64,000 bases of DNA from Malacoraja senta (lineage: Eukaryota). The stretch covers positions 26,352,001 to 26,416,000 of the forward strand of contig CM075988.1 in assembly GCA_038087875.1 (NCBI GenBank), given 5' to 3'. The translations under genes and the position numbers were made by a program. This document shows positions 841-62,637 of the stretch, in pieces. The notes under the pieces are model-generated. The model did no database searches. It was not told the DNA's origin and was given only the letters and a program-made list of their open reading frames with translations. The first letter of the stretch is position 1. Every line of letters starts with the position of its first letter.

Positions 841-909
841 CTTTGGGCAGCTGTACCATCTCATTCAAGTGACCTGCATTAATCATTTATTGGTCAACAA
901 AGAGGAATA

Positions 910-1620
910 TCAGGGGTTCAGGCAGCATCTATGGAGGGAAATGGATAGACAATGTTTTGTATCAGGACCCTTCATGACGTGAGGGGGATAACTGGTAAAA
1001 GGGAGAGGGGGAAGGGTCAGGCAAGACCTGGCAATGATGGCTGGATCCAGTTCAGGAGAGGATGGTTGGCAGATACATTGGGTGGGGAGGGAAGGATGCA
1101 AATGGACACAATAGCTGATGATACATGGTGATGACATCAGGCTGCAGATGTAGAATCTGATGGAGAGGCGAGGAGTGCAATGTGGCAGCGGGTGGGGGAG
1201 GCGGGGGTGATAGGTTACAGGGAAGGAGGAGAAGGGGACATGGAGATAGAGTGGGTGGATGATGAGTAAAAGGAGGGACTAGGAATGGGGAGAGTGGAAA
1301 GAGAAGTGTATGTAATTCAGGAGAAGGGGTGGATTCAATCTGAAACTGGACAATTCAATGTTCATGATGTTGGGTTGTGGACCACCCAAGCGGGATATGA
1401 GGTGCTGTTCTTCCAGATTACATGTGGCCTCGCCCTGGTAGTGGGAGAGGCTGAGGACAGACGGGCCGAATGGGGAATGGAATGGAAGTGGTAAGCAACT
1501 GGGAGCTCAGGCTGACCCTAGTGGACAGAGCAGTAGTGTTCAATGGATCTGTTGCCTACACCACACCTGGTGTCACTGATGTGGAGGAGACCACATTGAC
1601 AGCACTGAATGCAGTGGTCA
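910..1620 (-). mobile_element. Older degenerate Penelope-like 3' fragment
   Basis: HCIQCCQCGLLHISDTRCGVGNRSIEH aligns to the GIY-YIG segment at 50418-50738. Degenerate terminal repeat at 910-975. Confidence 0.75.
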
Positions 1621-4600
1621 AGGATTATAAATAGACACACTAAATGCTGGAGTAACTCAGCGGGACAGGCAGCGTCTCTGGAGAGAAGGAACGGGTGATG
1701 TTTCGGGTCGAGACCCTTCTTCAGACTGGATTCAGGATTATGAATGCAGATTTCCATTGGCTGTGTTTATGCTCATATAATTTGAGATACATGGACAGCG
1801 CCAGGGTGTGTCTCCCCCTCTCTCTCCCCCTGGACTCATGGGCTGATGAAGCAGGTAATTCCCCATCTGGTTCTTTCAAAGGATCTGGGAGTGATTTGCT
1901 GGGATCCCCAGGTATGGTCACCTCTGGAGACTTGGGAAGGAAGGACAAGATGTGAAGGTGAGATCCATCAGCAAACCTGTTGGCTGCAGACACTCGTTTC
2001 TTTTGTAACACCTGAGATCTTTGGAAACTTGTGACTCGGTGTCAGGTGAGCATATCCAGTAAGGTATGTCAGGTAAGGCATGAGGCATTGCACCACCCAG
2101 CTGACACACTACATTCCATTACTAATACAGATGGCTATTCAGCAATATCAGGAAGCATCCAATATATATACAACTGCCCTGGAATGGTTACTGGGTGGAA
2201 ACAGTTTGCCTCCTGTGTTACGGTACCCAGAGTTATTGACTCCCTTCTCCACAGGTTGCCTTTGTGTGGAGAAGAAGTCTCTTCACTGACTGAACTCTGC
2301 TTTGTCTTTATCCCCAGCATTCATAGCTCAAACCCCTGCTCCACTCGAGTCCTAAGGTGGCTGTTTTCCTCTGATCCCAGCAGTGTGTCGGCATTGCCAG
2401 AGTGATCTCTATGTGGGGATGTCTTGTGCTGACTCAGTCAGTGACCAGCTCTTTGGTTCAATGAACAGGGAACCAATGTGTCTCACCAAGGTTGGGCGAG
2501 AGTTCCTCAGACTCCCCAGTTGGGTCACATTGCCAGACAAGGCCTTCATCAGGGTCATGGATCCCACAGGTGGAGGGTCGAAGTTTAATCAATAACAACT
2601 TCAGTTCCTCTGATACTCACAAAGGGAGCAGCATTCTGAACAAGAGCAAGTATGGAGCATCAATTGAAAGACAGCAGTCAAGTTGGATGCTGTTTGTACA
2701 TATTACTGTATATTTTTGATGCCTAAATTTGCCCCTGGCTCCCTGTCTTGCCAAGACGCTCTGCTTCCCTCCCCGGCCACTCCATCTGGCAGTTCCATAC
2801 ACTTTGGATGCTCCCTGTTTACACGAGGATGAAAAGAGCTTCAAATTAGCTAAACCTGGCAGCTGTGTGGCAGATCAGAGTAACTATGTCCCAGCAAAAG
2901 CTGTGAACCGGTTACTCTGCCTACATCACCTTCCTCCCCAAACTCTCATCTTCACACCCCACCCCTACAAGAAGGCAAGGGAGCATAACGGAATGCATCC
3001 AGGTGGGCAAGGTTGCTCAGCAAGTGAACGGTGGCGGAAGGAGCTACCATGCTGCAGACATTGCAAGGTGAATGGCAGGGCTATCTTTCTCTGCACATCT
3101 CTCACTGGTACGGCATGAATACAGGTCTTGGTGGTGGCCTTCCCCTGTACATTCATTGGGGCGTGGGCAGGGTAGGGTTAGGGTGGGAGACGGGCCACAA
3201 GGCAGTGGAAGGTTACGAGAGAGAGAGAAGAGAGACATGGAAAGGGCAAGAAGAAGGTCTTGAGGAGGGGAAGGGTTAGAACTGTGGGAATGAGAGAGGA
3301 GAAAGGGGAGTGGGAAGTAGGAAGCAGCCAAAGATGGAAAGGTTCTGATGAGGAGAGGGAGGAATCGGGACTGGAGGGAAGTTAAGGAAGAGGGATAGAG
3401 GGAAAAGGATTGGCCAGGTGGGAGAGTGAAGGGGGGTGGGAGGGCAAGAATTGTTTATCCTCTGGAGGAATGAGCAAAGATAACATTCAGAAAGAAAACC
3501 TTTTAGGATTGGTCATTTGAAATTTGAACAATATATTCGTATAATGAACTCCAGGATAGCAGTGGTCATCAAAAACATTGTCATTCAGCAGAAAGTGGTT
3601 GTATTTCTGAGGCATATTTTTGATATTTATCATCAGAACACACTTGGGTTCCTATGTTGTGGACAATTTACGACGTATGTGGAGAGGTACTGGTTGTTAA
3701 CTGTGCTAATTGCGGAGGAGATGTTTATTGTCACGACATTGGTAAGAATACAATGGCTTTTGGTAGTTGGGTGACAACATCATCTCTCTCTGCGGCAGTA
3801 ATCCAATGATTATCTCACTCCCATTCATATGTATCAACTTAAAGGCTAATAACAGCATGTAGTTCCAATCTCAAATGCACTATTTTTATAGAACATGCTT
3901 AGTGTGTTCATGTTATGGGTTGTTCACGGAAGTGTGACAGGTGCTATTACACGCTTGCGAGCGATGTCAGTGTGACATGGACATCCCTCATCCTTCACGA
4001 TCTGGGCAAATTTCATTCAGAATGACCCTGCCTTTTGGTTTCTGCTGGATGTGAAGGCTTGTTTACATCGGACAGCAATGGCGGCCTCTGTTGTAACAAA
4101 AGGCCACAGGCTGTTGATTAGTAACAGCACCAATCTAACGGGCCTGTCACTAGGAGGTTTGCCCAGTGAGAGAGGTATGTTCAGTTAGAGCTTGGAAAGG
4201 GAAAGAAGGAATATAACAGACCAATGGCTGAGAATGGATCCCAGGCTGAACTCGAAGCTCCAATATGTGTGGTGGAGATTCTGCCAATCTCACGGAGACT
4301 AGGGAGAGGTATGGTCATGTCATCCCAGTAACTCAAACCACAATTTCCATAGATTTAGTTGGTAATTAATTTGTGATAATCTGTCCTTAATTGATTGCAG
4401 GCATCATGCATGATTGGGTTCACATTTGCAAAGTGCACAGTGCAGTTTAGTGTGCACAATGTATTGACACGGGCTGCCACAACAGCAAACAAGCTGCGAG
4501 CTGGTTCACAATCACATTTCAATCAGCAGTTGTCCAACTGAAGCATGTGAAGGTCTCCGTGACTGACAACATGCATGAACGTAAGTCACTTGAGACATCC

Positions 4601-12500: not shown

Positions 12501-12809
12501 TTCACCCTACAAACTGCTTACTATGGCCCAACCAGAAGAACATGTCATTGGCCTGGGATAGTTCAGATAAGGTGACAATGTGTGCTTCATCGTCTGCAAG
12601 ATAATCAACAGGTAGTTCTTTGCCCATGTTGGACCTCTTGCAGGGAATAGAGTCAACGTTGCCCATGTCTAGGACAATTTCAATTATACACCGCCATCAT
12701 GTCTCTTCTGTTGGATCTGCCTTACAATTGGGAGAGGGGACACCAAGAGTTTGTAAAGGCAATGGATAAAAGGCATGAATATTTGACTATATCAGGTTGG
12801 TAGTAGAGT

Positions 12810-14176: not shown

Positions 14177-14639
14177 CTGCACAGAAGAGAACGGTAGTTA
14201 AAGACTTATTGGAACCAAAAGAGTTCTTTTATTTCCACTCTCCCTCCCCCATGAATCCATACCTAAGGAAAATAAACAGATTTCTCCAGCACCTTTCAAA
14301 ACATCAGCATAGTCAATGATGGACTTGTGAAGTGCATCAATATTGCCATGGAAAATATAACAAGTCCCCAATGTGTATGCAGCAAGATCCTGCTCTCACC
14401 AGCATGACATGGACTAGGGCATCAGTCTCAGTGAAACTCAGCTCCTACATGAGACCATACACAAATCAACAACTGTATTCCGCTCGGGAAGCCTTCACCC
14501 CAAAAGCATTAACATTGAATTCTCTAATTTAGGACTAAGCCCCTCCCCAAAAACCTATTTTTCAGCACTCTGTCCCCTCCTCAACCCCACCCCCCCCCCC
14601 CACCCTCCACTGACTGCGCGCACACCATTCTGCCACGGA

Positions 14640-16261: not shown

Positions 16262-16466
16262 CTTGTGTGTAGGGAGGAACTGCACAAGCTGGCTTACCCC
16301 CAAAAGCTGGAATAACTCAGCGGGACAGGCAGAATCTCTGGAGAGAAGGAATGGGCGACGTTTCAGGTCAAGACCCTTCTTCAGACAGAAGAAACATCAC
16401 CCATTCCTTCTCTCCAGAGATGCTGCTTGTCCCGCTGAGTTACTCCAGCACTTTGTGTCTACTTTC
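16262..16466. mobile_element. Head-to-head palindromic PLE-terminal-repeat unit (SCN4B intron 1)
   Basis: Inverted arms flanked by direct repeats TTGTCTCTGCAG (16250-16261) and TTGTCTCTACAG (16467-16478). Confidence 0.85.
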
Positions 16467-16865
16467 TTGTCTCTACAGTGACCTCAGTCCACATTGGAGC
16501 ACAGTGGACAGCACAGCTGTAGATTACTGAGGAGGCATTCATCTCTGTGACAACAGAACGCAGCTTTAAATTCTTCATCTGAGTAAGAACTTGTCAACGA
16601 GTTCTGGGATTACTCAGCAAGATAAGGAATACACACACTGTGCAGACAGGTCACGTTGAAGGTAAGAATTAGTCACATGCAACCTGTACTAAATTGCAGA
16701 TATAAGCAGGATAAGAATTGCACATTGTGCTAATAATGCAGCGTTCTCAATTACTTGGAAGTGTAAGCATTATTCACAGTGTAAATGGGCTGCAGTTTAC
16801 ATTAGTTATTGAAGTGTTAACAATAAAAGGTTTAGAACATTTTGCATGTTAAGAAAATAACCTGA

Positions 16866-17655: not shown

Positions 17656-17873
17656 ATGTGTAGAAAGAAACTGCAGATGCTGGTTTTCACCAAACATAGG
17701 CACAAAATTCTGGAGTAACTCAGTGAAACAGGCAGAAACTCTGGAGAGGAGTGGGTGACGTTTTGGGTCGAGACCCTTTTTCACTCATCTCAACCCGAAA
17801 TGTCACCCACTCCTTCTATCCAGGGATGCTGCCTGTCCCGCTGAGTTACAACAGCATTTTGTGTCTATCTCCG
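17656..17873. mobile_element. Head-to-head palindromic PLE-terminal-repeat unit (SCN4B intron 1)
   Basis: Inverted arms with a perfect 12-bp direct repeat ATGATATGTATA at 17644-17655 and 17874-17885. Confidence 0.85.
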
Positions 17874-20800: not shown

Positions 20801-21239
20801 GTGAGGCCACAAAGCCAAGTACTCCTGCAGATGGAACTGAAGAATGGTCTCGACCCGAAACGTCGCCCATTCCTTCTCTCCAGAGATGCAGCCTGACCCG
20901 CTGAGTTACTCAAGCATTTTGTGTCTACCTTCGGTTTAAACCAGCATCTGGAGTTCCTTCCTACACAATCTCTTTTTGTTAATGGAAAGCAGGGGGGTTT
21001 GCGCTGTCTGAATTGCCAACGAGTGCCTGGTCGATAGCTGCAAACGTAAGCTGCCTCGTCAGTGAAGGAAGATTCAGGATTCCGCACGTGAATGTTATAT
21101 AACATGGAGAATATAGACCGTGAATATAGGACATCCACCGTGTTTCAAGATCACAGCCTTTATTTCCATCCAAGGCTGGCTGGCTATCTCTCACCTTCCC
21201 CAAACTCAATGGTGGGTTTTTATTACAAACGGCCAATTC

Positions 21240-23505: not shown

Positions 23506-23702
23506 GACATGAAATGTCACCCATTCCTTCTCTCCAGAGATGCTGCCTGTCCCGCTGAGTTACTCCCAACTTTGTGTCTGTCTAAGGAATTTCAGATACA
23601 AAAAAGTGTTGGAGTAACTCACCGGGTTGGGCAGCATCTCTGGAGAACATGGCTAAATGTTCAGACTGAAGGAGGGTCTTGATCCGAAATGTCACCTATC
23701 CA

Positions 23703-24366
23703 TGTTCTCCACAGATGCTGCCTGACCAGATGAGTTACTCCAGCAACTTGTTCTAGAAGGGAATATCTATTATTGGCTTCAGGTTTGACAGAGATTGTCC
23801 CACCAGAGGGAACAAAAATGAGTAAGGCTTATAAACATAAAGGGGGAAGCAAGAAGTTTAAATAATAGAGAATATTAAATATATTTACTAATGAAACAAT
23901 CTATAATTCATTGGCAAATGGACTAAAACTGTTCCATCATTGACACCAACGTCTCCAGTGAAATTTCAGTAATATATATTTCATAGGTTGTTGCAGAGAC
24001 AAATGTAGAGTTAGAGTCATAGAGTGATACAGCGTGGAAACGGACCCTTTGTCCAAACCTGCCCACACCGGCCAACATGTCCCAGCTACACTAGTCCCAC
24101 ATTTGGTCCATATCCCTCCAAACCTGTCCTATCCATGTACCTGTCTAACTGTTTCTTAAACGTTGGGATAAGCCCTGGCCCAACTACCTCCTCTGGCAGC
24201 TTGTTCCACAGACCCACCACCCTTTGTGTGAAAAGGTTACCCCTCAGATTCCTATTAAATGTTTCCCCCTTCACCTTAAACCTATGTCCTCCGGTTCTCG
24301 ATTCCCCTACTCTGGGCAAGAGTCTCTGTGTATCTACCCAATCTATTGCTCTCATGATCTTATACA
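23703..24366 (-). repeat. Copy A of an inverted ~660-bp composite duplication
   Basis: Colinear reverse complement of 42048-42698, including about 260 bp of otherwise unique AT-rich sequence. Confidence 0.9.
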
Positions 24367-24526
24367 ATGGTGGTTTGGGATACTTGTTTTACCAATATGA
24401 ATATGATATTGGTTGGTACCACTTTAAGGTTTAAAGCATGTGGCAATCAGGTTCTATGTCTAGAGATGGTCAAACTCCACTGAAACTTCTCAAAGCTAGC
24501 CTCAAACAGGCAATGTTGGAAATGTT

Positions 24527-24733
24527 TAAGAAGGAACTGCAGATGCTGGAAAAGTCAAAGGTAGACAAAAATGCTGGAGAAACTCAGCGGGTGAGGCAGC
24601 ATCTATGAAGCGAAGGAATAGGCGATGTTTCGGGTCGGGACACTACTTCAGGTTGAGACCTGAAACGTCACCTATTCCTTCGCTCCATACTTGCTGCCTC
24701 ACCTGCTGAGTTTCTCCAGCATTTTTATCTACC
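24527..24733. mobile_element. Head-to-head palindromic PLE-terminal-repeat unit (variant subfamily)
   Basis: Inverted arms with a perfect 13-bp direct repeat TGTTGGAAATGTT at 24514-24526 and 24734-24746. Confidence 0.85.
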
Positions 24734-25565
24734 TGTTGGAAATGTTGCTCTTTACAATGTATATTATTTTACAAATCATATTGTTAGGTTATATTACTTG
24801 CTATCCTCTAATAATTTAGGGATATTGAGATGATACAGTATAAAAAGTAGTGATGAGGATAATGTAAACGTGTCAGTTTGACTCACCATGGCAGGGCATG
24901 GTGCTTGGAGACTCACATCCTTGAGTCTGCAGAGTTATTAATGTGAGGGACTTTAGCTTCTTAAATGCGCTCGTCTCAAGGGAGAGGTCATTCTACAGGG
25001 CTATGAATCTTAACCTGGATTTACAGCAGCTCTTTTACATAATATACAACCATTTACAGCATTAAATGCGCCAGAGACCAGATGCATACAGATTAAGAGG
25101 GGACGATAGATTTGAAGCTGGCATCTGTGGTCAGAAGGTGATTGATATTTAGATTGAACATCATCCATTAGTTTGAAAGACGCTGAACATTTGACTGAAG
25201 AGATTTCATAAATTGTCAAGAAAACAGAAATATTGTTTCACACGGAAAGAAAATGATGGTCCATGTGGAAACAGTGATTGGAGTTCAGTCATGGGAAGAT
25301 TTTTAATGTGAGTCACAGTAACCACTTGATTCACCTCTGGTTGAAACCTCTTTTGGCATCCCCTGAATCATTTTTCAATTTACTGTTGCCAATTAAACCT
25401 GGCTGCAATGTCCTGGATGTGTACTGTTGGAGTGATCAGCTGCCCATCAGCCAAAGTGAAAGAAGATTATTTTGTTACGCATTGTTTAAAATTCACTTTG
25501 GGATTGTGGCGATTTTGGCAAGGCCCTCCCCCAATTGGCTTGACCAGGTGTTGGTGAGGTGCCTT

Positions 25566-26041: not shown

Positions 26042-26176
26042 AGTCTGAAGAAGGGTCTCGACCCGAAACATCACCCATTCCTTTTCTCCAAAGATGCTGC
26101 CTGTCCCATTGGGTTACTCCAGCACTTTGTGTCTATCTTCAGTATAAACCAGCATCTGCAGTTCCTTGCTACACAA
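26042..26176 (+). mobile_element. Solo PLE terminal repeat (representative; others near 1632, 7660, 20837, 23510, 27155, 29684, 30558, 31410, 52750, 58470, 58710)
   Basis: Recurrent sequence agtctgaagaagggtctcgacccgaaac.tcacccattcc...gagttactccagca...gtgtctatcttc.g..taaaccagcatctgcagttcctt. Confidence 0.85.
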
Positions 26177-33330: not shown

Positions 33331-34395
33331 ATGTGTTGTGTGTACAATAGGAGAAGGTAGGATCAGGATAGTCCTGTGTACTCACAACCCTCTACGTCCC
33401 CATACAGCCTAGTGACCATCACATTTCAGACTCAGCAAGGAATATTAAGCAGTGACCATCTTCAACATCAGGTTAAGCCCAAAGGGCAACGAGACCTAAC
33501 TGGGGAAATGATGAAAATAAATTGGAAACACCACCAAGATTTATTTCAATCACATATATTTTATTTTTAACTAAGTTACAACGAACAGATATCCAGAATC
33601 CCTGGCAATTCTTTCATATAACTCTGGTAATACTGAAACCTCCCAAAGGAGAAAAACCATGAAAAAAAAATAAAAAACATCATAATTTCTCAACTGCAAC
33701 CCTCACTTGTCCAACACACCATTCTGGAGTGGATCAGTCCATCAAGGAAGGTAAATGCTATAGGTGTGATCACAAGCTCACTCTGTGGGAATCCATTCAC
33801 AATTCTGCTAGAAATTGGAGGGGAGATCTCTGTGTACGTTCAACGTTACAGGCAGAGTAACAGGCAGATCATCACCACTGACGCAAGAGTTAGTCTATGG
33901 GATTATCTCACTCATTCAGAGAAGACGCTGAGCTGGTCCTTCAGGATTGTCCTGGGATGTCCACAAGTTAAGATCCACCTGCTGTGTATTGTTAACTCGG
34001 CCAACAGTCACGCATCATCTTGTGAGTGATCTACAAGATCTGGAGACACAAACGGCTGCAAATACTGGAATGTGGAGCAACCAATAAACTTCTGAAGGAA
34101 CTCAGCAGGTCAAGCAGCATCTGTGGGAGAAGGAGTGGTGGACATTGATGCATCAGCTGAACTTTTCTTCCCCCCCCCCCCCCCCGCACAGATTCTGCCT
34201 CACCTGCTGAGTTCCTCCAGCAGATTTTCTGTAGAATGTGAAGAGTTTGCTTGTTTTTCAATGGGACGATAAAAGATGGGAAACTCTGAGGATGGATGTG
34301 TTAGACTCCAAAGGCAGAGTGCTAGCCAACTTACACCACAAAATATACAAATGCAAACTTGGCAACTGCAGTGAAGTCACAGCGCATTCAATGCT

Positions 34396-34960
34396 GGACA
34401 AAAATGCTGGAGAAACTCAGCGGGTGAGGCAGCATCTATGGAGCGAAGGAATAGGCGACGTTTCAGGTCTAGACCCTTCTTCAGACTGATGGGGCGGGAC
34501 AAAGAAAGGAAGAGGCGGAGACAGTAGGCTGTGGGAGAGCTGGGAAGGGGAAGGGGGGACAAAGCAAGGCCTAACTGAAATTGGAGAAGTCAATGTTCAT
34601 ACTGCTGCCACGAGGTGCATTCAATGTTGATGTGAGGATCAGGAGATGAGACCACGCTTTAACCACGAGAGCCCAACTTCAATCATCTCTCATCCCCTTT
34701 TCATTTCTAGTCATTGTCACCATCTCCACTCACTTGCTAAACACCCCCACCCCTCACCTGTATACACCTATCACGTTAGCTTGCTCCACCCCCACCTCTC
34801 TTTCCCAGCTTTCTCCCCCCTACCCCGAGAGTCTGAATAAGAATCCCAACCCGAGATATCACAGGTCCATTTCCCTCCACAGGTGCTGCCTGACACATTG
34901 AGTTCTTCCAGTACTTTGTGTTTTGCTCCAGATTCCAGCATCTGCAGTCTCTTCTCTGTC
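34396..34960. mobile_element. Penelope-like 3' ends in inverted arrangement
   Basis: Minus-strand terminal repeat plus end of the GIY-YIG ORF (34396-34610), followed by a degenerate plus-strand 3' end and terminal repeat (about 34700-34960). Confidence 0.6.
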
Positions 34961-38552: not shown

Positions 38553-38826
38553 CCGATAATCCATTTCTTGTTAACGAACCAATCTTTTATCTACAACAAC
38601 CCATCACCTCCTGTACCATGAGCTATCACATGGAAATATATTCCTGTTTCTTCATTGATGGTGTAAATCCCAGTCCATATACGACTGTGAGATAGATTAC
38701 CTTTAGCAGAAAGACTGCAGAGATTGAAGAAGGAAGCTCACACCACCCGCTTCACAAAGGCAGGTAGGGACGGGCAATAGGCTCGAGCCTCACCATCAAC
38801 ACTACACCCAATTAAATTAATCAAGT

Positions 38827-39048
38827 TAGACACAAAAAGCTGAAGTAACTCAGCGGGACAGGCAGCATCTCTGGAGAGAAGGAAAGGGTGATGTTTCCGG
38901 TTTTGACACTTTTTCAGACTGATGAAGGGTCTCGACCGGAAACGTCACCCATTCCTTCTCTCCAGAGATGCTGCCTGTCCCGCTGAGTTACTCCAGCTTT
39001 TTGTGTCTATCTTCGGTTTAAACCAGCATCTGCAATTCCTTCCTACAC
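38827..39048. mobile_element. Head-to-head palindromic PLE-terminal-repeat unit just downstream of the SCN2B stop codon
   Basis: Inverted arms flanked by AATTAATCAAGT (38815-38826) and AATTAATTAAGT (39049-39060). CTGATGA...GAAACGTC core at 38919-38946 on the plus strand. Confidence 0.85.
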
Positions 39049-42047: not shown

Positions 42048-42698
42048 ATGTATAAAATCACAAAAGGGATAGATCGGGTAGATGCACACAGTCTCTTGCC
42101 CAGACTAGGTGAATCGAGGACCTGAGGACACAGGTTTATGGTGAAGGAGAAAAGATTTAATAGGAATCTGAGGGGTAACATTTTCACACAAAGGGTGGTG
42201 GGTGTATGGAACAAGCTACCAGAGGAGGTAGTTGAGGCTGGGACTATCCCAACATTTAAGAAACAGTTAGACAGGTACATGGATAGGACAGGTTTGGAGG
42301 GATATGGACCAAATGGGGCAGGTGGGACTCGTGTAGCTGGGACATGTTGGCCTGTGTTGGCAGGTTGGGACAAAGGGCCTGTTTTCACGCTGTATCACTC
42401 TATGTCTACATTTGTCTCTGCAACAACCTATTAAATATATATTACTGAAATCTCACTGGAGTTGTTGGTGCCAATGATGGAACAGTTTCAGTCCATTCGC
42501 TAATGAATTATAGATTGTTTCATTAGTAAATATATTTAATATTCTCCAAACTCACTTCCCCCTTTATGTTAATAAATCATACTCATTTTTATTCCTTCTG
42601 GTGGGACAATCTGTCAAACCTGAAGTCAATAAAAGATATTCCCTTCTAGAACTAGTTGCTGGAGTAACTCATCTGGTCAGGCAGCATCTGTGGAGAAC
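42048..42698 (+). repeat. Copy B of an inverted ~660-bp composite duplication (SCN2B intron 2)
   Basis: CR1 3' fragment, unique segment and PLE repeat arm. The CR1 5' truncation point is the same as in copy A. Confidence 0.9.
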
Positions 42699-43300
42699 AC
42701 AAGCAGACAATGTTTCAGGTCGGGAACCTTCTTCAGACCTGATCCATTTGTTCACATCTCCACAGACACTGTCTGACCCGCTGAGCTAATCCAGCACTTT
42801 GTGGTTTTTATATTTGTAAACCAGCGCCTGCAGTTTATCTGCAAACCCTCCATAAATATTCCTTTCATCTCTCACTCACAGACAAGAACACTCCCATTGG
42901 TCAGCTGAAGGCCAGGGCACAACGGCCGTAATTAAACACTTTGCTAAGATTAAATATTAATATCCATTTATCACCAATTTTCTTCATACATTTGCAGCAA
43001 ATTAGGAGTTGGATAGCAAATTGACATTAGTTCCTTTTATAATATATTTACGACATCTAGAATGGGTTAACTGAGGAGATTTCCACCAACACGTCTATCA
43101 CTGGGGCAGAGTGAAGAGTGGAGTTTATCCTGTTGATTCAGCCAAAGGAACAACACAGCTATCAGTCCAACTGTCCTTCAGTTAGTCTGCAGACAGTTGA
43201 AGTGGCCGCTGGATTCAGTAACATGTCCACCTCTATCTCATCAACGTTTATTGTTTCATTCTCTTGAATGAAGAATTGAATCAAAAGCCGGAACACTCAC

Positions 43301-46524: not shown

Positions 46525-47122
46525 AACTGACCACAAGTACTATGGTGAGCGTTGGGGTTGCGAGGTCATGCGGCAGTTATATGAGACGTTGGCGAGGCCA
46601 CATTTGCGTTCAGTTTTGGTCACCATGTTATATGAAAGATGTTGTCAAGCTGGAACGGGTGCAGAAAAGATCTATGAGAATGTTTGCTGGGACTTGAGGG
46701 CCTGAGCTATAGGGACAGGATGAGCAGGTTAGGACTTTATTACTTGGAGCGCAGGAGGACAAGGGGAGATCTCATAGAGGTGTATAAGGTCAGGTAAACG
46801 CAGAGTCTCTTGCCCAGAGTAGGGGAATCGAGAACCAGAGGATATAGGTTTAAGGTGAAGGGGGAAACATTTAATAGGAAACTGAGGGGTATCTCTTTCA
46901 CACAAAGGGTGGTGGGTGCATGGAACAAGCTGCCAGAGGAGGTAGTTGAGGCTGGGACTATCGCAATGTTTAAGAAACATTTAGACAGGTACATGGATAG
47001 GACAGGTTTGGAGGGACATGGGCCAAACACGGGTAGGTGGGACTAGTGTAGCTGGGACATGTTGGTCGGTGTGGGCAAGTTGGGCCGAAGGGCCTGTTTC
47101 CACACTGTACCACTCTGTGACT
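46525..47122 (+). mobile_element. CR1 LINE 3' fragment
   Basis: PRVGESRTRGYRFKVKG...WNKLPEEVVEAG peptide. Confidence 0.88.
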
Positions 47123-48472
47123 CCTTTCAAGTTACAGGAGCAGCCTCTAATTGGTGCATTAACTGCCACTGGTGCTCAATGTTCAGATAGGAATTGGATC
47201 CTCTGACCTGACCTGAAGCCCAGCTCCGAGTATGAGTTGGTGGCAGGTAACACGGATTTCATAAAAATAACTCATATTTTTGGACATTTTTCTAAATTAC
47301 CACAGACTCTAGGATAAACCTGGACCGTTGCCTCTTAAAACCACCTCTATACTCGCAAACATCTCAAAGTCAACTCTATCCAACTCATTTACCTTTAGAC
47401 TTTAGAGGTACATTGTGGCAACAGACCTTTCAGCCCACCGAGTCCGTGACAACTAGCGATCACCTGTACACTAGCCCTATCCTACACTCTAGGGCAATTC
47501 ACAATTTACAAAAACCAATTGAACTACAAACCTGTACGTCTTTGGAGTGTGGGAGAAAACCCGCACGGTTCCAGGGAGAACATTAATATAGGATTGGTGT
47601 AAATGGGTGGCTGATGGTTGACATGGACTCCATGAGCTGAAGGGCCTTGTTTACATGCTGTATGTTTCTATCGGCCTATGACTGAGGCTGCAGAAAATGT
47701 AGGAGAGGGATAGAGTAGTTGAGACTGGTGGGGATTGTGAGTGGAGAGGGGAGGGGAGCAAAGTAAGTCTGGTGGAACGAGGAGGGTGAGAATAGTGGGG
47801 CAATAAAGGAGGAAATGTCAATCTGAAAGTTTGGAGCAAAGGCTTGGGGGGAGGGTAGGGAGTGAGGGAGTGAGCATCAAAGGTGGGTGATGCTGAGGGA
47901 GGTAATGTGGGCAGGAGGACGGGGGAACATGGGGGAAACAGCGAGGGAGGTGAGACAGAAAGTAGTGTGTGACTGAGTTTGGAGGGATAGAGGGAGGGGG
48001 AGGGAGGGGGAGGGAGGGGGGAGGGTGGGAGGGGGGAAGGCGGGGGAAGGGGAGGGGAAGGAGGGGGGAGGGAGTGAGCACCTTCTCATCATGCTATGGC
48101 TACACGCCAGCAGCAAGCAGCATTTATGTTTTGATTCCAGTAGTGGACTAATTATAGTCTGTATCCTGTTTATGTAATAAAAGCAGTGGGAAATGTGTTA
48201 CAATAGAGGCTGGGGGGGAGGAAGTTGCATGGAGCAAGTGAACTAGTCCAACATTGGAGGCTGCATGCTCAAAACACAGTCATGTGGGTGAAGTGTTTGG
48301 GAGAACAAATGAGACCAGAAAGAATGAAAACACAACTACGTAGTCAGCATTGAACTTGAGTTATAAAAACCTGAAACAGTAACAGCAATCCAGTGCATTG
48401 ACAGCACGCCATTGTTCATCTGTAATTAACTTCTCTCCGTGTCAATGATGCAGGGTCACCATCAGACTTGCG

Positions 48473-48790: not shown

Positions 48791-50212
48791 TCTCATCAAT
48801 ATGCCTCAGTCAATTAGATCCCTCTATTCCTCTGTGATTGAGTTACCACATGTGTTGCTGCAGTAACCCATGGTCTGTAGAAACTCTACAGCCATCTAGT
48901 GGTTATTCAGCATTGATAAGCATTAAACATTCCAGATGAAGGATTATTATTTTGTTGGCGAATGTACACATTATAGGTTCCAGAGCAGATCTTATCTTAT
49001 ATCGTGATTCACCAAGTACATACAGAATGTGACCTTATTTAAACAAATCCTCAGATGTTGCCGTCCAGGGTTATGGACAGATTCCACACTGACCTTGTGA
49101 TAACAAGCCATTATTAATGAAGGAAGACCATTTCCGGAGCAGATGATGCTGTTGGAGATAGAGCCTGAGGAAGTCCTGCTGCAGTACCTGCAGGTTGGGA
49201 TCATAAACCACAGCATCCATGTGTGCAAGATATGACTCCAACCATTGCATGTAGAGGGGAGGGGAGCAAAGTATTCTCACCCTCCTCGTTCCATCAGATG
49301 TACTTTGCTCCCCTCCTCTCCCCTCTACACTAAATATCCCTTTAGTTCCAACTGTCCAATTTTAGCAAGCCTCCTTGAGGCCACAATTGATGTCAAGGAC
49401 AGTCACTCCAATTTCACCTCTGGAATACAGCTCATTGAATCAAATTTTATCAAAGAATGTGAAAGGTTTGGAGTTGAGTGGGTCTAGTGAAAGCCAAACT
49501 GAGATATTGGTGAGGTGCACTACTGAATTAGTGCAGTTGATGTGGACTGATTGGGCCATAGTTAGTTAATAGTTGCACCTCTCTTGTGAAAACATCGACA
49601 GTGTAGTCATTCCTAGGGTGATTGAAAAGTGTTGGCTGCAGAGTACAACTGTATCTCACATTGGCTCTCTGCCCACAACATTTAAAGTTCATCATCTATA
49701 TAGTCTTGCCTCTTCCTGCCTGCAGACCCTAATTCTACAATTCCCTTCATGACTGGGGCCACTTTGATGATTCAGCTCTGGTGACTCTGCCTTCAGTCAT
49801 TAGGCCTCTGCTCTCGAATGTTTCCCTAAAATTCTCTGCCATTCTATCTCTCCCCCTCTTCTTTTTTCTACACTCTTTGAACAGTTGGTTAAATATCAAC
49901 TTCTGAATAATTTGTTCACCACTTACTTAAACCTTCCCTTCTTTCATTAGTTGTGGGTGCCACTGACATGGCCAGCATTTGATGCTCATTATCCTTAAGA
50001 AGGTGGTGGTGACCATTATCCCATAGGCATGATATGCAATGGCGGATTTGGATACAGTCCCAACGAAGGGACAATGATGCATTTCCATTTCAGGATGATG
50101 GGTCTCGAGGAGTTGTCATCATTCCCAACGACCTGGTGCTCTTGTGGTAAAGGTTACAAGTGTGGAAAGTGTTAATGAGGAAACCTTGGCAAATTGCAGG
50201 AATATATTCTCT

Positions 50213-50945
50213 AGAAGATAGACACAAAATGCTGGAGTAACTCAGCGGGACAGGCAGCATCTCTGGAGAGAAGGAATGGGTGACGTTTCGGGTCGAGACC
50301 CTTCTTCAGACTGATGTCAGGGGAGAGGGCGGGACAGAGATAGAATGTAGTCGGAGACAGTAAGACTGGTGGGAAAACTGAGAAGGGGAGGGGATGGAGA
50401 GAGAGGGAAAGCAAGGGCTATTTGAAGTTAGAGAAGTCAATGTTCATACAGCTGGGGTGTAAGCTGCCCAATATGAGATGCTGTTCCTCCAATTTGAACT
50501 GGGCCTCACTCTGACAATGGAGGAAGCCCAGGACTGAAAGATCAGTGTGGGAATGGGAGGGGGAGTTAAAGTGTTTAGCAACCGGGAGATCCGGTAGGTT
50601 TAGGCGGACTGAGCGGAGGTGTTCAGCGAATCGATCGCCGAGCCTGTGCTTGGTCTTGCCGATGTACAGTAGTCCACACCTGGAGCAACGGATACAGTAA
50701 ATGAGGCTGGAGGAGGTGCAAGTGAACCTCTGCCTCACCTGAAAGGACTGTCGGGGTCCTCGGACGGAGTCAAGGGGGGAGGTATTGGGACAAGTGTTGC
50801 ATCTCTTGTGGTTGCAGGGGAAAGTATCGGGGGAGGAACGGGAAGGGACGAGTTGACCAGGGAGTTGCAGAGGGAACGGTCTCTGCGGAAAGTGGAAAGG
50901 GGTGGAGATGGGAAGATGTGGGATCTACCAGTGGGATCCCGTTGG
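50213..50945 (-). mobile_element. Penelope-like retroelement 3' fragment: GIY-YIG endonuclease remnant plus terminal repeat
   Basis: ORF 50418-50738 FTCTSSSLIYCIRCSRCGLLYIGKTKHRLGDRFAEH is the PLE GIY-YIG/CCHH signature. It is followed by a pyrimidine-rich spacer and the ~100-bp repeat at 50312-50213. Confidence 0.9.
50282..50309 (-). ncRNA. Minimal type-I hammerhead ribozyme-like motif in the PLE terminal repeat
   Basis: Minus strand reads CTGAAGA-A-GGGT(CTCG)ACCC-GAAA-CGTC: core boxes, stem II, palindromic ACGU stem III and GUC triplet. Stem I is only about 2 bp, so activity is unproven. Confidence 0.6.
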
Positions 50946-53900
50946 ATATCCAGTGAATATCCAGGATGGTAGAGGGGCTGACAGTCGAGTAGGTTGATCT
51001 CTTTTGGATTATATCAAGTTTCTTGAATGTGTTTGGAAATGCACTTAATCAGACAGTGAAGATGGCCCTCACACAACCCTGACTTGTTACTCATGCAGGC
51101 TGGGAACAAGGAGTTGCATCACTCATCATATAATAGCCATCATCCGACCCGCTCTTGTAACCATCGTATTCATCGTTGTGTTGCCATCAATCTCTGTGTC
51201 CAATTTAATTCTTGTAAAGTAACGGAGTACATTAAAGGTGGTTTATAAATGGAAATGGATAAATGGAAGGTTGACGGTTTGAGCAGTAAAATGTTGGTGT
51301 GGAATGGAAGAAAACCACAGCTAATAGTCTTTGTTCTCTGACAAGGAGAGTGTGCAAGGCCAAATACATTCAATTCTTTTATGGGTGAGTATGTTGAATA
51401 GACTATTGGAAAACCAGGAAATGGAGAAAGGAAACAGATCATCACTAAATGTGTAATATCAATTAGATGGACGCATCCCCAGGATGTAGGTTATTGAAGG
51501 TTGGAGTGATATCAGTTGTTTAATTTTGTGATGGGAACAATGAGTGTTGTAGAGAGATGGAGAGATCAAAAAATGTTGTACATCATCTTCCACAGACCTG
51601 AAACTTTAACTCGGTTTTCCTCTATTGACATAGATTTTCACGATATATTGATAAACTTGGTTAGTACCCAGGGTGGGGGATGGGTGAGATGTGGGGAATT
51701 AGTGAGTCAGAGAGGAGTCAATAGATGAAGTTAGTACTCCATGGAAGTTCTTGTGCGTCAGAGAGAGATCAATATATCTGGTGATTTTTGGAAGGAATGA
51801 AAGTGTCATGGAGAAATCAATAGATTAGATCAGTCCCTGGGGAAAAATGTTGCCAGAGAGAAAAATCAAAGGAATATTAATTTCCATGCAGGAATTATCA
51901 AGGGATAGACAGGGATCAATAGGTTTGATTATTTCCGACTGGGAAAGAGTGAAAGAGATATCATTCAGTGTGAGCGAGTGATTGATGCCAATATATGTCG
52001 ATTGTGGAAGGAGCTAAGATTAATGGCTTAATGTTCGCTCCAAGCTTTCACAATTTTTCAAAAAGGTTTACCAATGATAATTACAATCAGATTACACTTT
52101 TATAATCTATACACCAAAAGGAAAAATGATGTGCTGATGTTAGCAATTATGTATGCAAATTCCCACTATTTAACTATTAAGAATTGCAATGTGGACTACT
52201 TTTGAAGCAAATGTTTAAAAAGGGCATTAAACTAAATTGAGCTGCAACTGCTCCTCCAATCCCATAGATGGAAAGCAAACAATTACAAGTGTTATCATTC
52301 TAAGCACCATCGACCTGATATAGTATCTGTTTCTCTCTCCACAGATGCTGAGTGTCTCCAACAGATGGAGCTGCATCAACTTCTGGGACGTGATCGGCAC
52401 TTCAATAGTACTTGCCTTGACCTCTGGAGATTCTTAAAATTCACATCTTTACAAAGGCAACACAACGGCCAATATACACACGGCAAGGCAACACAGACAG
52501 AATGATCACAGTCAAATAGTTGCCTAGAAATTCAACTCCAAAATAAACGCACCATTGCCACCTCGGTTCCCCCAACTTCTGATAGGTTTGCTACCATATA
52601 ACTCATCAAATAACTGGTATTACTCTTGAGGCAGTCTTGTTTTATTGACGTTAGTTCAGAGCTAAAGATTGGCCAAGAACCACAGAACAAATCTTCCTGC
52701 TGTTCACCTGAGAGTTTAATATCTCATTGAAAAGGCTGTAATACCTAAATGAAAAAGGGTCTCGACCCGAAACGTCACCCATTCCTTCTCCCCAGAGATG
52801 CTGCCTGTCCTGCTGAATTACTCCAGCTTTTTGTGTCTATCTTCAGTTTAAACCAGCATCTGCAATTCCTTCCTACACAAACCTCAAGACTCCCTGAGTA
52901 CTGCACTAAGGGCATCAAATTAGATCATCTCTGAATTCAGATTTGAACCACTTTGGACTTAATTGTATCGGGACAAATAATGTTTCTTAACAGGGAGTTT
53001 TATTATCTTAATCTGTATTTCTATACTACCAGAATTCAAACATTAAGAGCAAACAAATTTAGTGATCTGTTTTTATTTACTCATGTTAAGGGGCGTCACT
53101 TTTAGGAATTTATTAGTAGACTAATCAATCACTTGGGTTGTCAGGGAAACCACATCATAGCTGCCTGCTACCAGGCCTGATAGTTTTCAGCAGCAATACA
53201 AATAATCAGTCCATTCCCAGGAGCGATATCAAACGGTCAACACCATTCCATATAAAGAGATACAAAGACAAGCCCAAAAGCAGAGTCAAAGAAGAGGGAA
53301 GATGGAGCTATGAGGGCAACTGTTTCAGGCTTACGGTGTTAAGGACATGGTTGCTAAGGTGGGGTGAGGACAATTGGGATCTTGTCCACCCATTCCAAGT
53401 GTAGCTGCACACAACTATATGCAGTGGGTCAGTGTCAATGGAAGAACTTCAACAGGGCCATGAATTATTGACAGCCTTTCCATGATGTGAAGGTCTTGCA
53501 GGTCCTGGTGTAATCGTTTCATAATCGATTTGCCACACTCATGCAAAAAGCCACAGATTATTAAGGATTTTTAATTTGTGAAGATGTACAAAAACAATGG
53601 ATGCCTTTGACTGTGTTTTCCCATTTCACCACAGCTAGTCCTGTAGCATCAACCTCTCCCAGAACAAGAAGGGTCCACATACAAACACATTTACCACAGG
53701 TTGAGTTTCATTGGCAGTTGCTCAAAGATGCAAACACAGGGAAGGATGAAAGTGTCGGTGATAATGCAAGATGCAATTCAGTCACTTTTATTTTGCTCTG
53801 TGTCCATCAGTTGGGCATGTCCATCCCTTTAGTTCAGGTTTCAGCATTGGCAGGAATTCATGCTTTATTCCCACCTCCGGACTCTGTCAAGGCACACAAT

Positions 53901-54057
53901 CACTCTCTCCCACTCTGGAGAAGGTAGCAATTCAGGGAAAATCAATCAGTACAATTCTGAATTACAGCCTTCTGCAACACTGGTAGCTCCACTGGAGAAA
54001 GGTTCCTGATGAGGGTGAAGACCTTTTGTCATGTCAGCCTGAGCAAAGGCATGCAAA

Positions 54058-54111
54058 TGTGTGTGTGTGGGTGTATGTGTGTGTCTCTCTCTATCTGTCT
54101 GTGTCTCTGCC

Positions 54112-54167
<56 letters not shown>

Positions 54168-54214
54168 TGTGTGTGTGTGTGTGTGTGTGTGTCTCTGCGT
54201 CTGTGTATGTCTCC

Positions 54215-54257
<43 letters not shown>

Positions 54258-54341
54258 TGCCTGTCTGTGTGTGTGTGTGTCTCTACCTCTGTGTATGTCT
54301 CCCTGTCTGTGTGTGTCTGTGTGTCTGTCTGTCTGTCTGTC

Positions 54342-54385
<44 letters not shown>

Positions 54386-54492
54386 TGTATGTGTCAGTGT
54401 ATGTGTGTGTGTGTGTCTCTGCCTCTGTGTATGTCTCCATATGTGTGTGTGTGTGTGTGTGTCTGCCTCTGTGTATGTCTCCATGTGTGTGT

Positions 54493-54525
<33 letters not shown>

Positions 54526-54598
54526 AGTGTGTGTGTGTGTGTGTGTGTGTCTGTGTGTGTGTGTGTGTGTGTGTGTCTCTGCGTCTGTGTATGTCTCC

Positions 54599-54643
<45 letters not shown>

Positions 54644-54731
54644 TGCCTGTCTGTGTGTGTGTGTGTCTCTACCTCTGTGTATGTCTCCCTGTCTGTGTGT
54701 GTCTGTGTGTCTGTCTGTCTGTCTGTCTGTC

Positions 54732-54763
<32 letters not shown>

Positions 54764-54928
54764 TGTATGTGTCAGTGTATGTGTGTGTGTGTGTCTCTGC
54801 CTCTGTGTATGTCTCCATATGTGTGTGTGTGTGTGTGTGTGTGTGTCTGCCTCTGTGTATGTCTCCATGTGTGTGTCAGTGTGTGTGTGTGTGTGTGTGT
54901 GTGTCAGTGTGTGTGTGTGTGTGTGTGT

Positions 54929-54977
<49 letters not shown>

Positions 54978-54998
54978 AGTGTGTGTGTGTGTGTGTGT

Positions 54999-55039
<41 letters not shown>

Positions 55040-55310
55040 AGTGTGTGTCAGTGTGTGTGTGTGTGTGTGTGTCAGTGTGTGTGTGTCAGTGTGTGTCAGT
55101 GTGTGTGTGTGTGTGTGTCAGTGTGTGTCAGTGTGTGTCAGTGTGTGTGTGTGTGTGTGTGTGTCAGTGTGTGTGTGTGTGTGTCAGTGTGTGTGTGTGT
55201 GTGTGTGTGTCAGTGTGTGTGTGTGTCAGTGTGTGTCAGTGTGTGTCAGTGTGTGTGTGTGTGTGTGTGTGTCAGTGTGTGTGTGTGTGTGTCAGTGTGT
55301 GTCTGTGTGC
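54058..55310. repeat. Compound (TG)n microsatellite with higher-order structure
   Basis: TG runs interrupted by recurring TC, TA and CA variants. A block repeats with ~384-bp period (ctctgcgtctgtgtatgtctccatatg at 54193 and 54577). Confidence 0.97.
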
Positions 55311-55691
55311 ACAAAACAATTTAAATAGCTGATGGTTCCCAGCACCAATCTCTCAGATTGATATATGCATGGATCACCATAATCTAATTATTATAAATGT
55401 AAATAGTCCAAGAAATTAAGTGGAAATCAGGCAATTTAATGAAGACATTGCAATCAATATAGAGAAGGCGATTCAGATATTCTCGCATTATATTAAACCC
55501 TTTAATGTTTTTCGTTGTCAGAAGGTTGAGAGATGTAGTTTGCCTTCAGTCTCCACAGTGATTCACACCGCCTCGTCCACCCACCTATCTACTCGCCCCT
55601 CTCTCCACTACACCCTCCCCTGCACCATCCTTTTTGTTTTTTCCCTCTCACCAGAAAGCTTACAAGATGCAATGAATGGTTTGCAACTTAC

Positions 55692-61962: not shown

Positions 61963-62039
61963 CTGGAATCAGAAGAAGGACAGTGTAAGAAATGGGCAAG
62001 GGCCAGTAACAATGTAACTAAATCAAGGCCATCTTTTCT

Positions 62040-62637
62040 AGAGTCATAGAGTGATACAGTGTGGAACCAGGCCCTACGACCCAACTTGTCCACACCGGCC
62101 AACATGTCCCAGCTACACTAGTCCCATCTGTCTGCGCTTGGTCCATATCCCTCCAAACTTATCCAATCCATGTAACTGTCTAACTGTTTCCTAAACGTTG
62201 GGATAGTCCCAGCCTCAACTACCTCATCTGGCAGCTTGTTCCATACACCCACCACCCTTTGTGTGAAAAAGTTACCCCTCAGATTCCTCTTAAATCTTTC
62301 CCCCTTCACCTTGAGCCTATGTCCTCTGGTCTTCGATTCCCCTACTCTGGGCAAGAGACCCTGTGCATCTACCCAATCTATTCCTCTCATGATTTTATAC
62401 ACCTCTATAAGATCCCCCCTCATCCTCCTGCGCTCCAAGGAATGGAGACCCAGCCTATTCAACCTCTCCCTATAGCTCACACCCTCTAATCTTGGCAACA
62501 TCCTCGTAAATCTTCTCTGAACCCTTTCAAGCTAAACAATATCTTTCCTATAACATGGTGCCCAGAACTGAACACAATATTCTAAATGCGGTCTCACCAA
62601 CGTCTTGTACAACTGCAACATGACCTCCCAACTTCTA
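62040..62637 (-). mobile_element. CR1 LINE 3' fragment
   Basis: ORF 62118-62501 encodes the CR1 ORF2 C-terminus. Confidence 0.9.

What the first reader, a model, noticed from the sequence alone, without database searches (positions are those of the whole stretch)
50213..50738. The most abundant short repeat is a Penelope terminal repeat carrying a minimal hammerhead-ribozyme core
Seen: the ~130-bp repeat found more than 20 times in the window is physically attached here to the 3' end of a GIY-YIG ORF, which identifies its origin. Its 5' end reads CTGAAGA-A-GGGT(CTCG)ACCC-GAAA-CGTC. Near-intact cores are at 50309-50282(-), 34484-34457(-), 16384-16357(-), 1724-1697(-), 20837-20864(+), 26045-26072(+) and 38919-38946(+). 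Established: Penelope-like elements carry minimal type-I hammerheads whose stem III is reduced to a palindrome (here ACGU) and which cleave as dimers. Inference: this genome is densely seeded with hammerhead-derived motifs, several in sense orientation within SCN2B and SCN4B introns. Caveats: stem I is only about 2 bp and there is an extra A before stem II, so many copies may be inactive fossils.
Basis: partly seen in the sequence, partly recalled or inferred. Interest (0 to 1): 0.75.

Follow-up and report, generated by a model that had tools for sequence, protein, structure and literature searches.

The report
Penelope terminal repeat with minimal hammerhead
The repeat is the end piece of a Penelope-type jumping gene in a skate-like fish and does carry the known minimal hammerhead ribozyme motif, but almost all copies are decayed fossils, so the catch is correct and the kind is not new.

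Summary
Confirmed; a known kind. 50213-~50960(-) is a dead, 5'-truncated Neptune-type Penelope-like element (PLE): Cys linker, GIY-YIG (Pfam 24.7 bits), pyrimidine-rich 3' UTR, then the terminal repeat. Its core fits the published minimal-hammerhead consensus (Cervera & De la Pena 2014). The 'extra A' is part of that consensus, not a defect. The repeat occurs as 43 pieces (6% of the window; 0 in shuffles), but only 3 of 43 pass the descriptor. Among copies the core is no better conserved than the rest (4.1% vs 4.4% changes), and helix II shows no covariation. Intronic copies show no strand bias (6 sense, 8 antisense). The copies carry PLE integration marks: head-to-head pairs, a tail on one arm, 10-13 bp target duplications. 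Unexpected: 19 of 38 copies start within 6 nt of CUGA, none at the cleavage site, so cleaved RNA was not the template. This may be internal priming near the transcript's 5' end. Self-cleavage was not tested; a competing helix is predicted to mask the monomer. The scan noted the same motif before in shark genomes.

The parts
50214..50960 (-). 5'-truncated, dead Neptune-type Penelope-like element (3' end only), in sense orientation in SCN2B intron 1; left end exact to about 2 nt, right end approximate
   Evidence: tblastn with shark and ray PLE proteins covers 50950-50421; RNA read depth falls to zero beyond bin 50868-50963; gene model
50840..50950 (-). remnant of the region between RT and endonuclease, in a different frame from the endonuclease (frameshift near 50850)
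   Evidence: two-frame tblastn hits to P0005 and P0016
50790..50816 (-). CX4CxxC zinc-finger-like linker (CNHKRCNTC), the mark of Neptune/Nematis-type PLEs
   Evidence: translation; linker definition in PMC8557442 passages; alignment to the RT-bearing P0016
50484..50705 (-). GIY-YIG endonuclease domain (LIYCI...LYIG); reading frame ends at TAG 50420-50418; two codons missing near the C terminus
   Evidence: Pfam PF01541, residues 74-147; 55-69% identity to batoid and shark PLE proteins; gap seen
50313..50417 (-). pyrimidine-rich 3' UTR ending in CTGAC-AT-CAG; resembles a 3' splice site (untested)
   Evidence: sequence; 83% pyrimidine in the last 30 nt
50282..50309 (-). minimal type I hammerhead core: CUGAAGA, unpaired A, helix II GGGU(CUCG)ACCC at 50301-50290, GAAA, palindrome ACGU, C17; predicted cleavage between 50282 and 50281
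   Evidence: descriptor scan against the consensus in PMC4209133 Fig. S3
50280..50311 (-). helix I, 2 bp only: G50311-C50280 and U50310-A50281
50270..50281 (-). stretch just 3' of the cleavage site that is predicted to pair with the core and the 5' strand of helix II, masking the monomer fold
   Evidence: helix II pair probability 0.001; RNAalifold picks this helix instead of helix II
50214..50281 (-). rest of the terminal repeat (pLTR), short form without tail
   Evidence: alignment of copies; loose ends at 50214-50221
52845..52879 (+). example of the optional ~33-nt 'tail', on the solo copy 52750-52879
   Evidence: loose end at 52879 in three runs
34389..34607 (-). second copy joined to the last GIY-YIG codons and 3' UTR; core passes the descriptor (G-U closing pair)
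906..1630 (-). older GIY-YIG remnant with a ~350-nt 3' UTR and a decayed hammerhead repeat (975-906)
16267..16470 (.). head-to-head pair, tail on the minus arm only, 12-bp target duplication (1 mismatch); the minus arm (16384) passes the descriptor and is sense in SCN4B intron 1
17658..17870 (.). head-to-head pair, one tail, exact 12-bp target duplication
24524..24739 (.). head-to-head pair, one tail, exact 13-bp target duplication; the arms share 5 private letters
38823..39048 (.). head-to-head pair overlapping at the near-palindrome TCAG(T/A)CTGA, one tail, 12-bp target duplication (1 mismatch)
1631..1736 (-). young solo copy with a 12-bp target duplication (1 mismatch), palindrome lost

Best explanation
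The locus is the 3' end of a dead Neptune-type Penelope-like retrotransposon of a skate-like fish. Its terminal repeat (pLTR) begins with a minimal type I hammerhead. SHOWN: the order linker, GIY-YIG, UTR, hammerhead, repeat; the match to the published consensus; the PLE marks on the dispersed copies (head-to-head pairs, one-sided ~33-nt tail, 10-13 bp target duplications); neutral decay driven by CpG change; 5' ends piled at the hammerhead's 5' edge and not at its cleavage site. INFERRED from the Anolis PLE work: the element's RT-endonuclease nicks both target strands and starts reverse transcription inside the RNA at two sites about 95 and 130 nt downstream of C3. The two sites give the short and the tailed ends. 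The template is uncleaved RNA, and most cDNAs stop at the hammerhead's 5' edge, giving 100-130-bp solo copies or two copies joined head to head; a minority run on into the ORF, as at 50309. INFERRED: in the master element the hammerhead cleaves weakly at best, as a dimer through ACGU or with the element's protein. As a lone copy in SCN2B or SCN4B pre-mRNA it is inert (no helix III, 2-bp helix I, competing helix). Why cDNAs stop there is open: RNA 5' end about 0.4, RT exit at the fold or near-palindrome about 0.4, separate short master about 0.2.
For: GIY-YIG and homologues in rays and sharks, some with RT. Three ORF-repeat links in the window. An independent protein record, P0032, reads through a GIY-YIG end, a different UTR and the same repeat. 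Zebra shark P0007 ends SLMKGLRPKRQ where the window frame reads SLKKGLDPKRH, which puts the change at the free N7 position. Descriptor hits 3 against a shuffle mean of 0.005. Among 13 neighbours within 120 bp, 11 are head-to-head, 2 tail-to-tail, 0 same-strand; the tail is on exactly one arm in 9 of the 11. Duplication score of 10 or more in 7 of 23 units against 0 of 300 random flank pairs. 19 of 38 starts at -6..+6, 0 of 38 at +25..+33. Loose ends at 50311, 50214-50221 and 52879 in other fishes' runs. Non-CpG core changes 7 of 171 against 50 of 1142 downstream, p=1.0; CpG core positions changed in 5 of 22 to 7 of 22 copies. The same structures are described in PMC3846280, PMC8557442 and PMC11167929.
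Against: No full-length element was seen, so the 5' pLTR, the transcript start and RT in this family are inferred; no genome was held and the contig collections gave nothing. The clade rests on the linker motif, not on an RT tree. Helix II covariation, the usual proof of a selected fold, is absent in 18 copies (0 of 4 helix II pairs with a change on both sides; score reached by 148 of 500 shuffles). The arms of a pair are each other's closest copy in only 2 of 12 pairs, so a single template per pair is not shown. 14 of 23 units, including the 50309 fragment, have no clear target duplication. Rfam finds nothing at gathering level or at E up to 10.
Confidence: 0.87

Rival explanations
1. The 100-130-bp repeat is a non-autonomous, SINE- or retrozyme-like element with its own short master copies. 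It derives from the pLTR and is moved in trans by the PLE protein.
For: Sharp 5' edge. The short form is about 20-100 times deeper than the ORF part in DNA contigs of a relative (summed depth is not a copy number). Head-to-tail joints (50311 to 52879 in 33 contigs; 50311 to 50214 in 20) and core-to-core joints of about 38 nt exist in run X1. The 2026 preprint derives animal retrozymes from pLTRs.
Against: No same-strand neighbours among 13 close pairs in the window. Tandem joints have depths of about 1e3 against 1e8 for the repeat. The repeat variants (downstream letters) are also found attached to ORFs (50309, 34484). No tRNA gene in the window; Pol III boxes were not tested. PolyA reads fall on both strands alike (4725 against 4602).
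Confidence: 0.2
2. Intact sense copies are active ribozymes that cut SCN2B or SCN4B pre-mRNA and have been kept for a host role, like the intronic hammerheads of amniotes.
For: Two of the three complete cores lie sense in first introns. The 50309 copy is the only one with a perfect core. A related species holds the insertion's 5' junction (contig from 50925 to 52180, about 94% identical).
Against: No strand bias (6 of 14 sense, p=0.79). No excess conservation. Helix III is absent and helix II probability is 0.00-0.41 across 23 copies. Published monomers do not cleave. No pile-up of RNA ends in run X23 (a weak test in a fragmented polyA library).
Confidence: 0.04
3. The hammerhead look is chance or a relic in an ordinary repeat; the motif is under no selection even in the master elements.
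For: No covariation, no Rfam match, monomer fold not favoured.
Against: All consensus positions, the unpaired base, G10.1-C11.1 and the palindrome are met together, at exactly the place where PLEs carry the motif. The motif frame is kept in a shark element. Its 5' edge coincides with the insertion boundary.
Confidence: 0.06

Closest known systems
Minimal hammerheads (min-HHR) in pLTRs of metazoan PLEs (Cervera & De la Pena 2014, PMC4209133)
   Same: CUGANGAH, helix II closed by G-C, GAAA, palindromic 15.2-16.2 (CG is the commonest in Fig. S3), UH; position in the terminal repeat downstream of the endonuclease; mostly single dispersed copies
   Different: Helix I is 2 bp with one A-U pair, at the short end of the published range. 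No chondrichthyan appears in the Fig. S3 alignment or Table S1. Density is far above the 4,000-9,000 motifs per genome reported for coelacanth and Xenopus if all pieces are counted; the counts are not like for like, since only 3 of 43 pieces pass.
Neptune clade of endonuclease-bearing PLEs (Arkhipova 2006, as summarised in PMC8557442)
   Same: RT, then CX2-5CxxC linker, then C-terminal GIY-YIG, in homologues; inverted 5'-truncated copy; 30-40-bp tail at one end
   Different: No microsatellite targeting seen at the clear insertion sites. Nematis shares the linker, and no RT tree was built.
Poseidon element of Anolis (PAc; Frangieh et al. 2024, PMC11167929)
   Same: Two 3' ends a tail apart, about 100-140 nt downstream of the hammerhead; uncleaved RNA as template; no RNA ends at the cleavage site
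   Different: Different clade; in PAc the ORF starts inside the hammerhead. The in vitro behaviour was not tested here.
Adineta vaga Penelope insertions (PMC3846280)
   Same: Inverted pLTR, one-sided 31-bp tail, 8-10-bp target duplications, palindrome at the pLTR 5' end, solo pLTRs
   Different: There, solo pLTRs are few and ascribed to recombination or deletion. Here short copies dominate and some carry their own target duplications.
Non-LTR retrozymes (PMC7229834; bioRxiv 10.64898/2026.07.22.740005)
   Same: Short non-coding repeat with a type I hammerhead, related to pLTRs
   Different: Retrozymes are tandem arrays; here copies are solo or head-to-head, and tandem joints are rare.

Membership tests
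min-HHR of metazoan PLEs | core CUGANGA ... GAAA ... UH | tested here: met
   50309, 34484 and 16384 pass; 3 of 43 pieces
min-HHR of metazoan PLEs | unpaired base between A9 and helix II; G10.1-C11.1 pair | tested here: met
   A, then G-C at 50309 and in the consensus; G-U at 34484 and 16384
min-HHR of metazoan PLEs | helix III reduced to a palindrome | tested here: met
   ACGU; lost by CpG decay in about half of the young copies
min-HHR of metazoan PLEs | helix I of 2-6 bp | tested here: met
   2 bp only; 67% of cells paired in 18 copies
min-HHR of metazoan PLEs | located in the terminal repeat of a PLE | tested here: met
   three ORF links in the window and P0032
min-HHR of metazoan PLEs | compensatory changes in the helices between families | tested here: inconclusive
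   none in helix II among 18 copies of one genome; these are near-identical fossils, and DNA of other families could not be fetched; 5 read-through peptides showed no change at the visible pair
min-HHR of metazoan PLEs | self-cleavage after NUH as dimer or with protein | not testable with these tools
   no pile-up of read ends in polyA run X23, which cannot show such ends reliably
EN+ Penelope-like elements | C-terminal GIY-YIG endonuclease | tested here: met
EN+ Penelope-like elements | RT upstream in the same ORF | tested here: inconclusive
   cut off in this copy; homologues P0016 and P0018 carry PF00078 upstream of the matching region
EN+ Penelope-like elements | inverted 5'-truncated repeat, one-sided tail, short target duplication | tested here: met
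EN+ Penelope-like elements | full-length body between two direct pLTRs | not testable with these tools
   no genome held
Neptune clade | CX2-5CxxC linker before the endonuclease | tested here: met
   CNHKRCNTC
Neptune clade | placement in the RT phylogeny | not tested
   no RT in the window copy and no named reference set at hand
Non-LTR retrozyme | tandem units, each with a complete hammerhead | tested here: not met
   0 same-strand neighbours among 13 close pairs; only rare tandem joints in a relative
Canonical type I hammerhead (Rfam) | 6-bp helix I and loop 1-loop 2 contact; Rfam score | tested here: not met
   0 matches at gathering level and at E up to 10; helix I is 2 bp

The most novel reading that the evidence does not exclude
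The solo and head-to-head copies are 'strong-stop'-like products. The PLE protein primes inside the 5' copy of the terminal repeat, at the two internal start sites, and runs off the transcript's 5' end, which lies at an initiator-like TCAGT overlapping helix I. One autonomous retrotransposon would thus spray out a SINE-sized family of perhaps 1e5-1e6 copies (several percent of the DNA) with no separate short master. Each head-to-head pair would be a frozen record of both target strands being primed, one at each start site, with the two cDNAs joining at the near-palindrome TCAG(T/A)CTGA. That would be genome-scale in vivo evidence for the mechanism seen so far in vitro with one Anolis element.
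Probability: 0.33. Interest if true: 0.6.

Novelty: new member of a known kind. Interest (0 to 1): 0.3.

Why it matters
As a class it does not: minimal hammerheads in PLE terminal repeats were described in 2014, including their spread as single copies. What this locus adds is a very abundant batoid family, which I did not find described in the library searched (repeat databases and subscription journals were not searchable). Its copies have sharp ends, so the open steps of PLE integration can be counted on genome data: where priming starts, whether cleaved RNA is ever copied, and how inverted repeats form. It also gives annotators a name for a repeat that ends up in gene models (P0034, P0007).

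Tried and rejected
Rfam at gathering level on the window and at E up to 10 on 50150-50450: nothing. Related loci by protein or DNA pattern in the viral, metagenome and prokaryote collections: nothing. The own genome is not held. Run X22 laid 0 reads, which is no test. Covariation through read-through peptides: only 5 hits, all near-identical, uninformative. Cleaved RNA as template: rejected, 0 of 38 starts at +25..+33; three pieces called at +41 have a divergent middle and may reach about +33. Spliced element RNA as template: not supported; the copies share no upstream exon (profile starts at C3; flanks) and no CT..AC joint is among the 15 joints shown of 2,364. A subfamily-specific 3' extension at 23666 and 42736: rejected; both lie in one duplicated 700-bp segment, so those two pairs count as one event. 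Two duplication hits are not true target duplications: 59382 is a local tandem repeat and 42736 falls in the shared segment. Whole-repeat folding is not better than shuffles (z from -1.6 to +0.7). Dimer folding by energy alone does not favour the double hammerhead (-12.7 against -24.7 kcal/mol; the model cannot include helix I). No structure prediction was run, since it would not change the verdict. Lunse et al. (PMC5785218) is not held; I saw only its title in a reference list.

Full report
Setting. The window is from a skate-like fish: its SCN2B exon is 93% identical to little skate and its SCN4B exon 82% to thorny skate. Coding exons of SCN2B lie at 55770-55693, about 43470-43298, 40355-40146 and 39345-39145; those of SCN4B at 21755-21669, 15680-15489, 14176-13967, 11926-11798 and 10052-9969; all are on the minus strand. 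The finding lies in SCN2B intron 1, in sense orientation. No whole genome was held.

The element. The minus-strand frame 50924-50418 hits Pfam GIY-YIG above the cut-off. A search among longer proteins gave 19 relatives among 347 candidates, led by ray and shark proteins at 55-69% identity; two sea-urchin hits carry an RT domain. tblastn shows homology from 50950 in one frame and from about 50850 in another, so the copy is 5'-truncated and frameshifted; it also lacks two codons near the end. The CX4CxxC linker before the endonuclease is the feature that PMC8557442 gives for Neptune and Nematis (passages); I call it Neptune-type without a tree. After the stop come 108 pyrimidine-rich bases and then the repeat. 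The same link is seen at 34607-34389 and, older, at 1630-906. P0032, from an unnamed assembly, reads through a GIY-YIG end, a different UTR and the same repeat. The zebra shark protein P0007 ends SLMKGLRPKRQ where the window frame reads SLKKGLDPKRH, so by inference from the codons a shark element has the motif in the same place. A contig of a related species spans 50925-52180 with 71 differences and 33 gap letters, so the insertion predates that split.

The hammerhead. 50309-50282 reads CUGAAGA A GGGU CUCG ACCC GAAA CG UC. The consensus in Fig. S3 of Cervera & De la Pena is CUGANGAH, G...C, GAAAN, palindrome, NUH (supplement parts 1-2 of 3; main text parts 1-2 of 4). The extra A is thus expected, and 2-bp helix I occurs in three listed species. 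No shark or ray is in that alignment. A descriptor built on it finds 3 sites in the window (50309, 34484, 16384) against a mean of 0.005 in 200 shuffles. Rfam finds nothing.

The copies are fossils. A profile finds 43 pieces (6.2% of the window; 0 in 10 shuffles); no other interspersed repeat comes close. 18 of 43 cover the core and 3 pass (the alignment of 30556 there bridges an insertion, and that copy fails in any case). In the 26 youngest copies, non-CpG core positions differ in 7 of 171 cells against 50 of 1142 downstream (p=1.0; 15 subfamily-diagnostic columns and CpG columns were removed from the downstream set). A cruder count without that removal gave 8 of 236 against 84 of 1028. G12, C11.1 and both palindrome letters sit in CpGs and are changed in 5 of 22 to 7 of 22 copies. 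In 18 copies that I chose for covering the core, helix II has no pair with a change on both sides, and no measure beats the shuffles. Intronic pieces are 6 sense and 8 antisense. Folding predicts that the 12 bases after the cleavage site pair with the core and the 5' strand of helix II: helix II probability is 0.001 at 50309 and at most 0.41 in 23 copies, and RNAalifold picks the competing helix. Published monomers of this class do not cleave. The Anolis motif cleaves only with protein and is not needed for insertion (PMC11167929, parts 1-2 of 4).

How the copies were made. Of 13 neighbours within 120 bp, 11 are head-to-head and none is same-strand; in 9 of the 11 exactly one arm has the ~33-nt tail (two of the 11 are one event duplicated). 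Four of 8 pairs tested have 12-13-bp direct repeats at their outer ends. Overall, 7 of 23 units score 10 or more against 0 of 300 random flank pairs; two high scores are not true duplications, and 14 units have none. This is the structure described for rotifer and other PLEs (passages of PMC3846280 and PMC8557442). Against a simple one-template picture, the arms are each other's closest copy in only 2 of 12 pairs. The two 3' ends lie about 95 and 130 nt after C3, like the two internal RT start sites of the Anolis element. The 5' ends are the surprise: 19 of 38 BLAST pieces start at -6..+6 (0.089 ends per base at risk, against 0.010-0.016 downstream) and none at +25..+33. 18 of the 19 lack the pyrimidine-rich UTR upstream, so the edge is real; 34830 probably runs further. 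In DNA contigs of a relative (run X1, 517,299 laid), summed depth drops from 1.0e8 on the repeat to 1-5e6 on the ORF and about 1e2 on the flank, with loose ends at 50311, 50214-50215 and 52879 (the tool warns that this is no copy number). Scaling the window density to a genome of about 2 Gb (size recalled) gives roughly 1e6 pieces; this is an inference from one window. In polyA RNA of another species (X23), 24,029 of 7,335,232 reads lay on the stretch, equally on both strands of the repeat, with no pile-up of ends: consistent with passive read-through, and a weak test of cleavage.

Why the 5' edge. (a) The transcript starts at TCAGT, which fits the initiator consensus (recalled; an Inr-like TCACT is noted in a rotifer pLTR), and priming in the 5' repeat runs off the end. 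(b) RT leaves the template at the fold, at the pyrimidine tract, or at the near-palindrome TCAG(T/A)CTGA, over which two pairs overlap. (c) A short master exists. Against (a): in D. virilis the start lies 46 nt before a 75-nt intron whose end abuts helix I (passages of PMC2377424), and the skate sequence has a splice-acceptor-like end at the same place. I could not separate these.

Literature and verdict. The class is published. PMC6765202 (passages) reviews dimer cleavage, citing Lunse et al., which I could not read. The 2026 retrozyme preprint (part 1 of 5 and passages) sampled one chondrichthyan; I did not see its supplements, which may list this family. PMC4350176 and PMC7229834 (passages) add no description of it. 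Eight searches (listings only for papers not named above) found no account of this repeat in skates; Repbase and Dfam could not be checked. Three earlier notes of this scan report the same motif in shark genomes; I had reached my reading before seeing them, and they are not evidence. Verdict: real, a new member of a known kind, inert at this site. The remaining interest lies in the insertion geometry.

Noticed in passing
window 23603-24300 and 42115-42800: A ~700-bp segment occurs twice (85% identical, opposite strands). It starts with an inverted pLTR pair and ends in another ~290-bp repeat: a composite mobile unit, a transduction or a small duplication.
   Followed up: partly
window 735-790; run X1 joints 50312-50315 to 50282: Partial tandem in which a piece ending 4-8 nt after the cleavage site is joined to the repeat's 5' start. 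In X1 this gives core-to-core tandems of about 38 nt with several different junctions (table 5c), natural candidates for a dimeric hammerhead in cis.
   Followed up: partly
window 7663, 17783, 38917, 52750: Four copies of different sub-types share G8 to A (CUGAAAA); three of them begin at the U of CUGA. Possibly a mutation hot spot near the end of the cDNA or a dead sub-lineage.
   Followed up: no
window 50310-50345 (-): Pyrimidine tract, CTGAC and CAG form a 3'-splice-site-like signal at helix I, as in D. virilis Penelope; in sense orientation in SCN2B intron 1 it could act as a cryptic acceptor.
   Followed up: partly
window 38821-39048: A head-to-head pair lies about 100-320 nt beyond the last mapped SCN2B coding exon, possibly in the 3' UTR, where it would form double-stranded RNA.
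   Followed up: no
window 12249-12461 (+) and 14457-14549 (+): Further GIY-YIG end fragments in SCN4B introns, without a detected hammerhead repeat.
   Followed up: partly
window 46604-47123, 62039-62637, 8500-8866, 12804-13342, 24011-24366 and others: Second repeat family, about 7 copies, probably the 3' end of a LINE (guess; not identified).
   Followed up: no
window 53946-55328: 1.4-kb (TG/CA)-rich microsatellite array in SCN2B intron 1, about 370 bp from the first coding exon.
   Followed up: no
P0034, P0019, P0003, P0004: Public gene models of skates and rays (Figla isoform, neuromedin-U receptor, RTP3-like, DIPK1C) include pieces of this repeat or of the endonuclease: exonisation or annotation error.
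   Followed up: no
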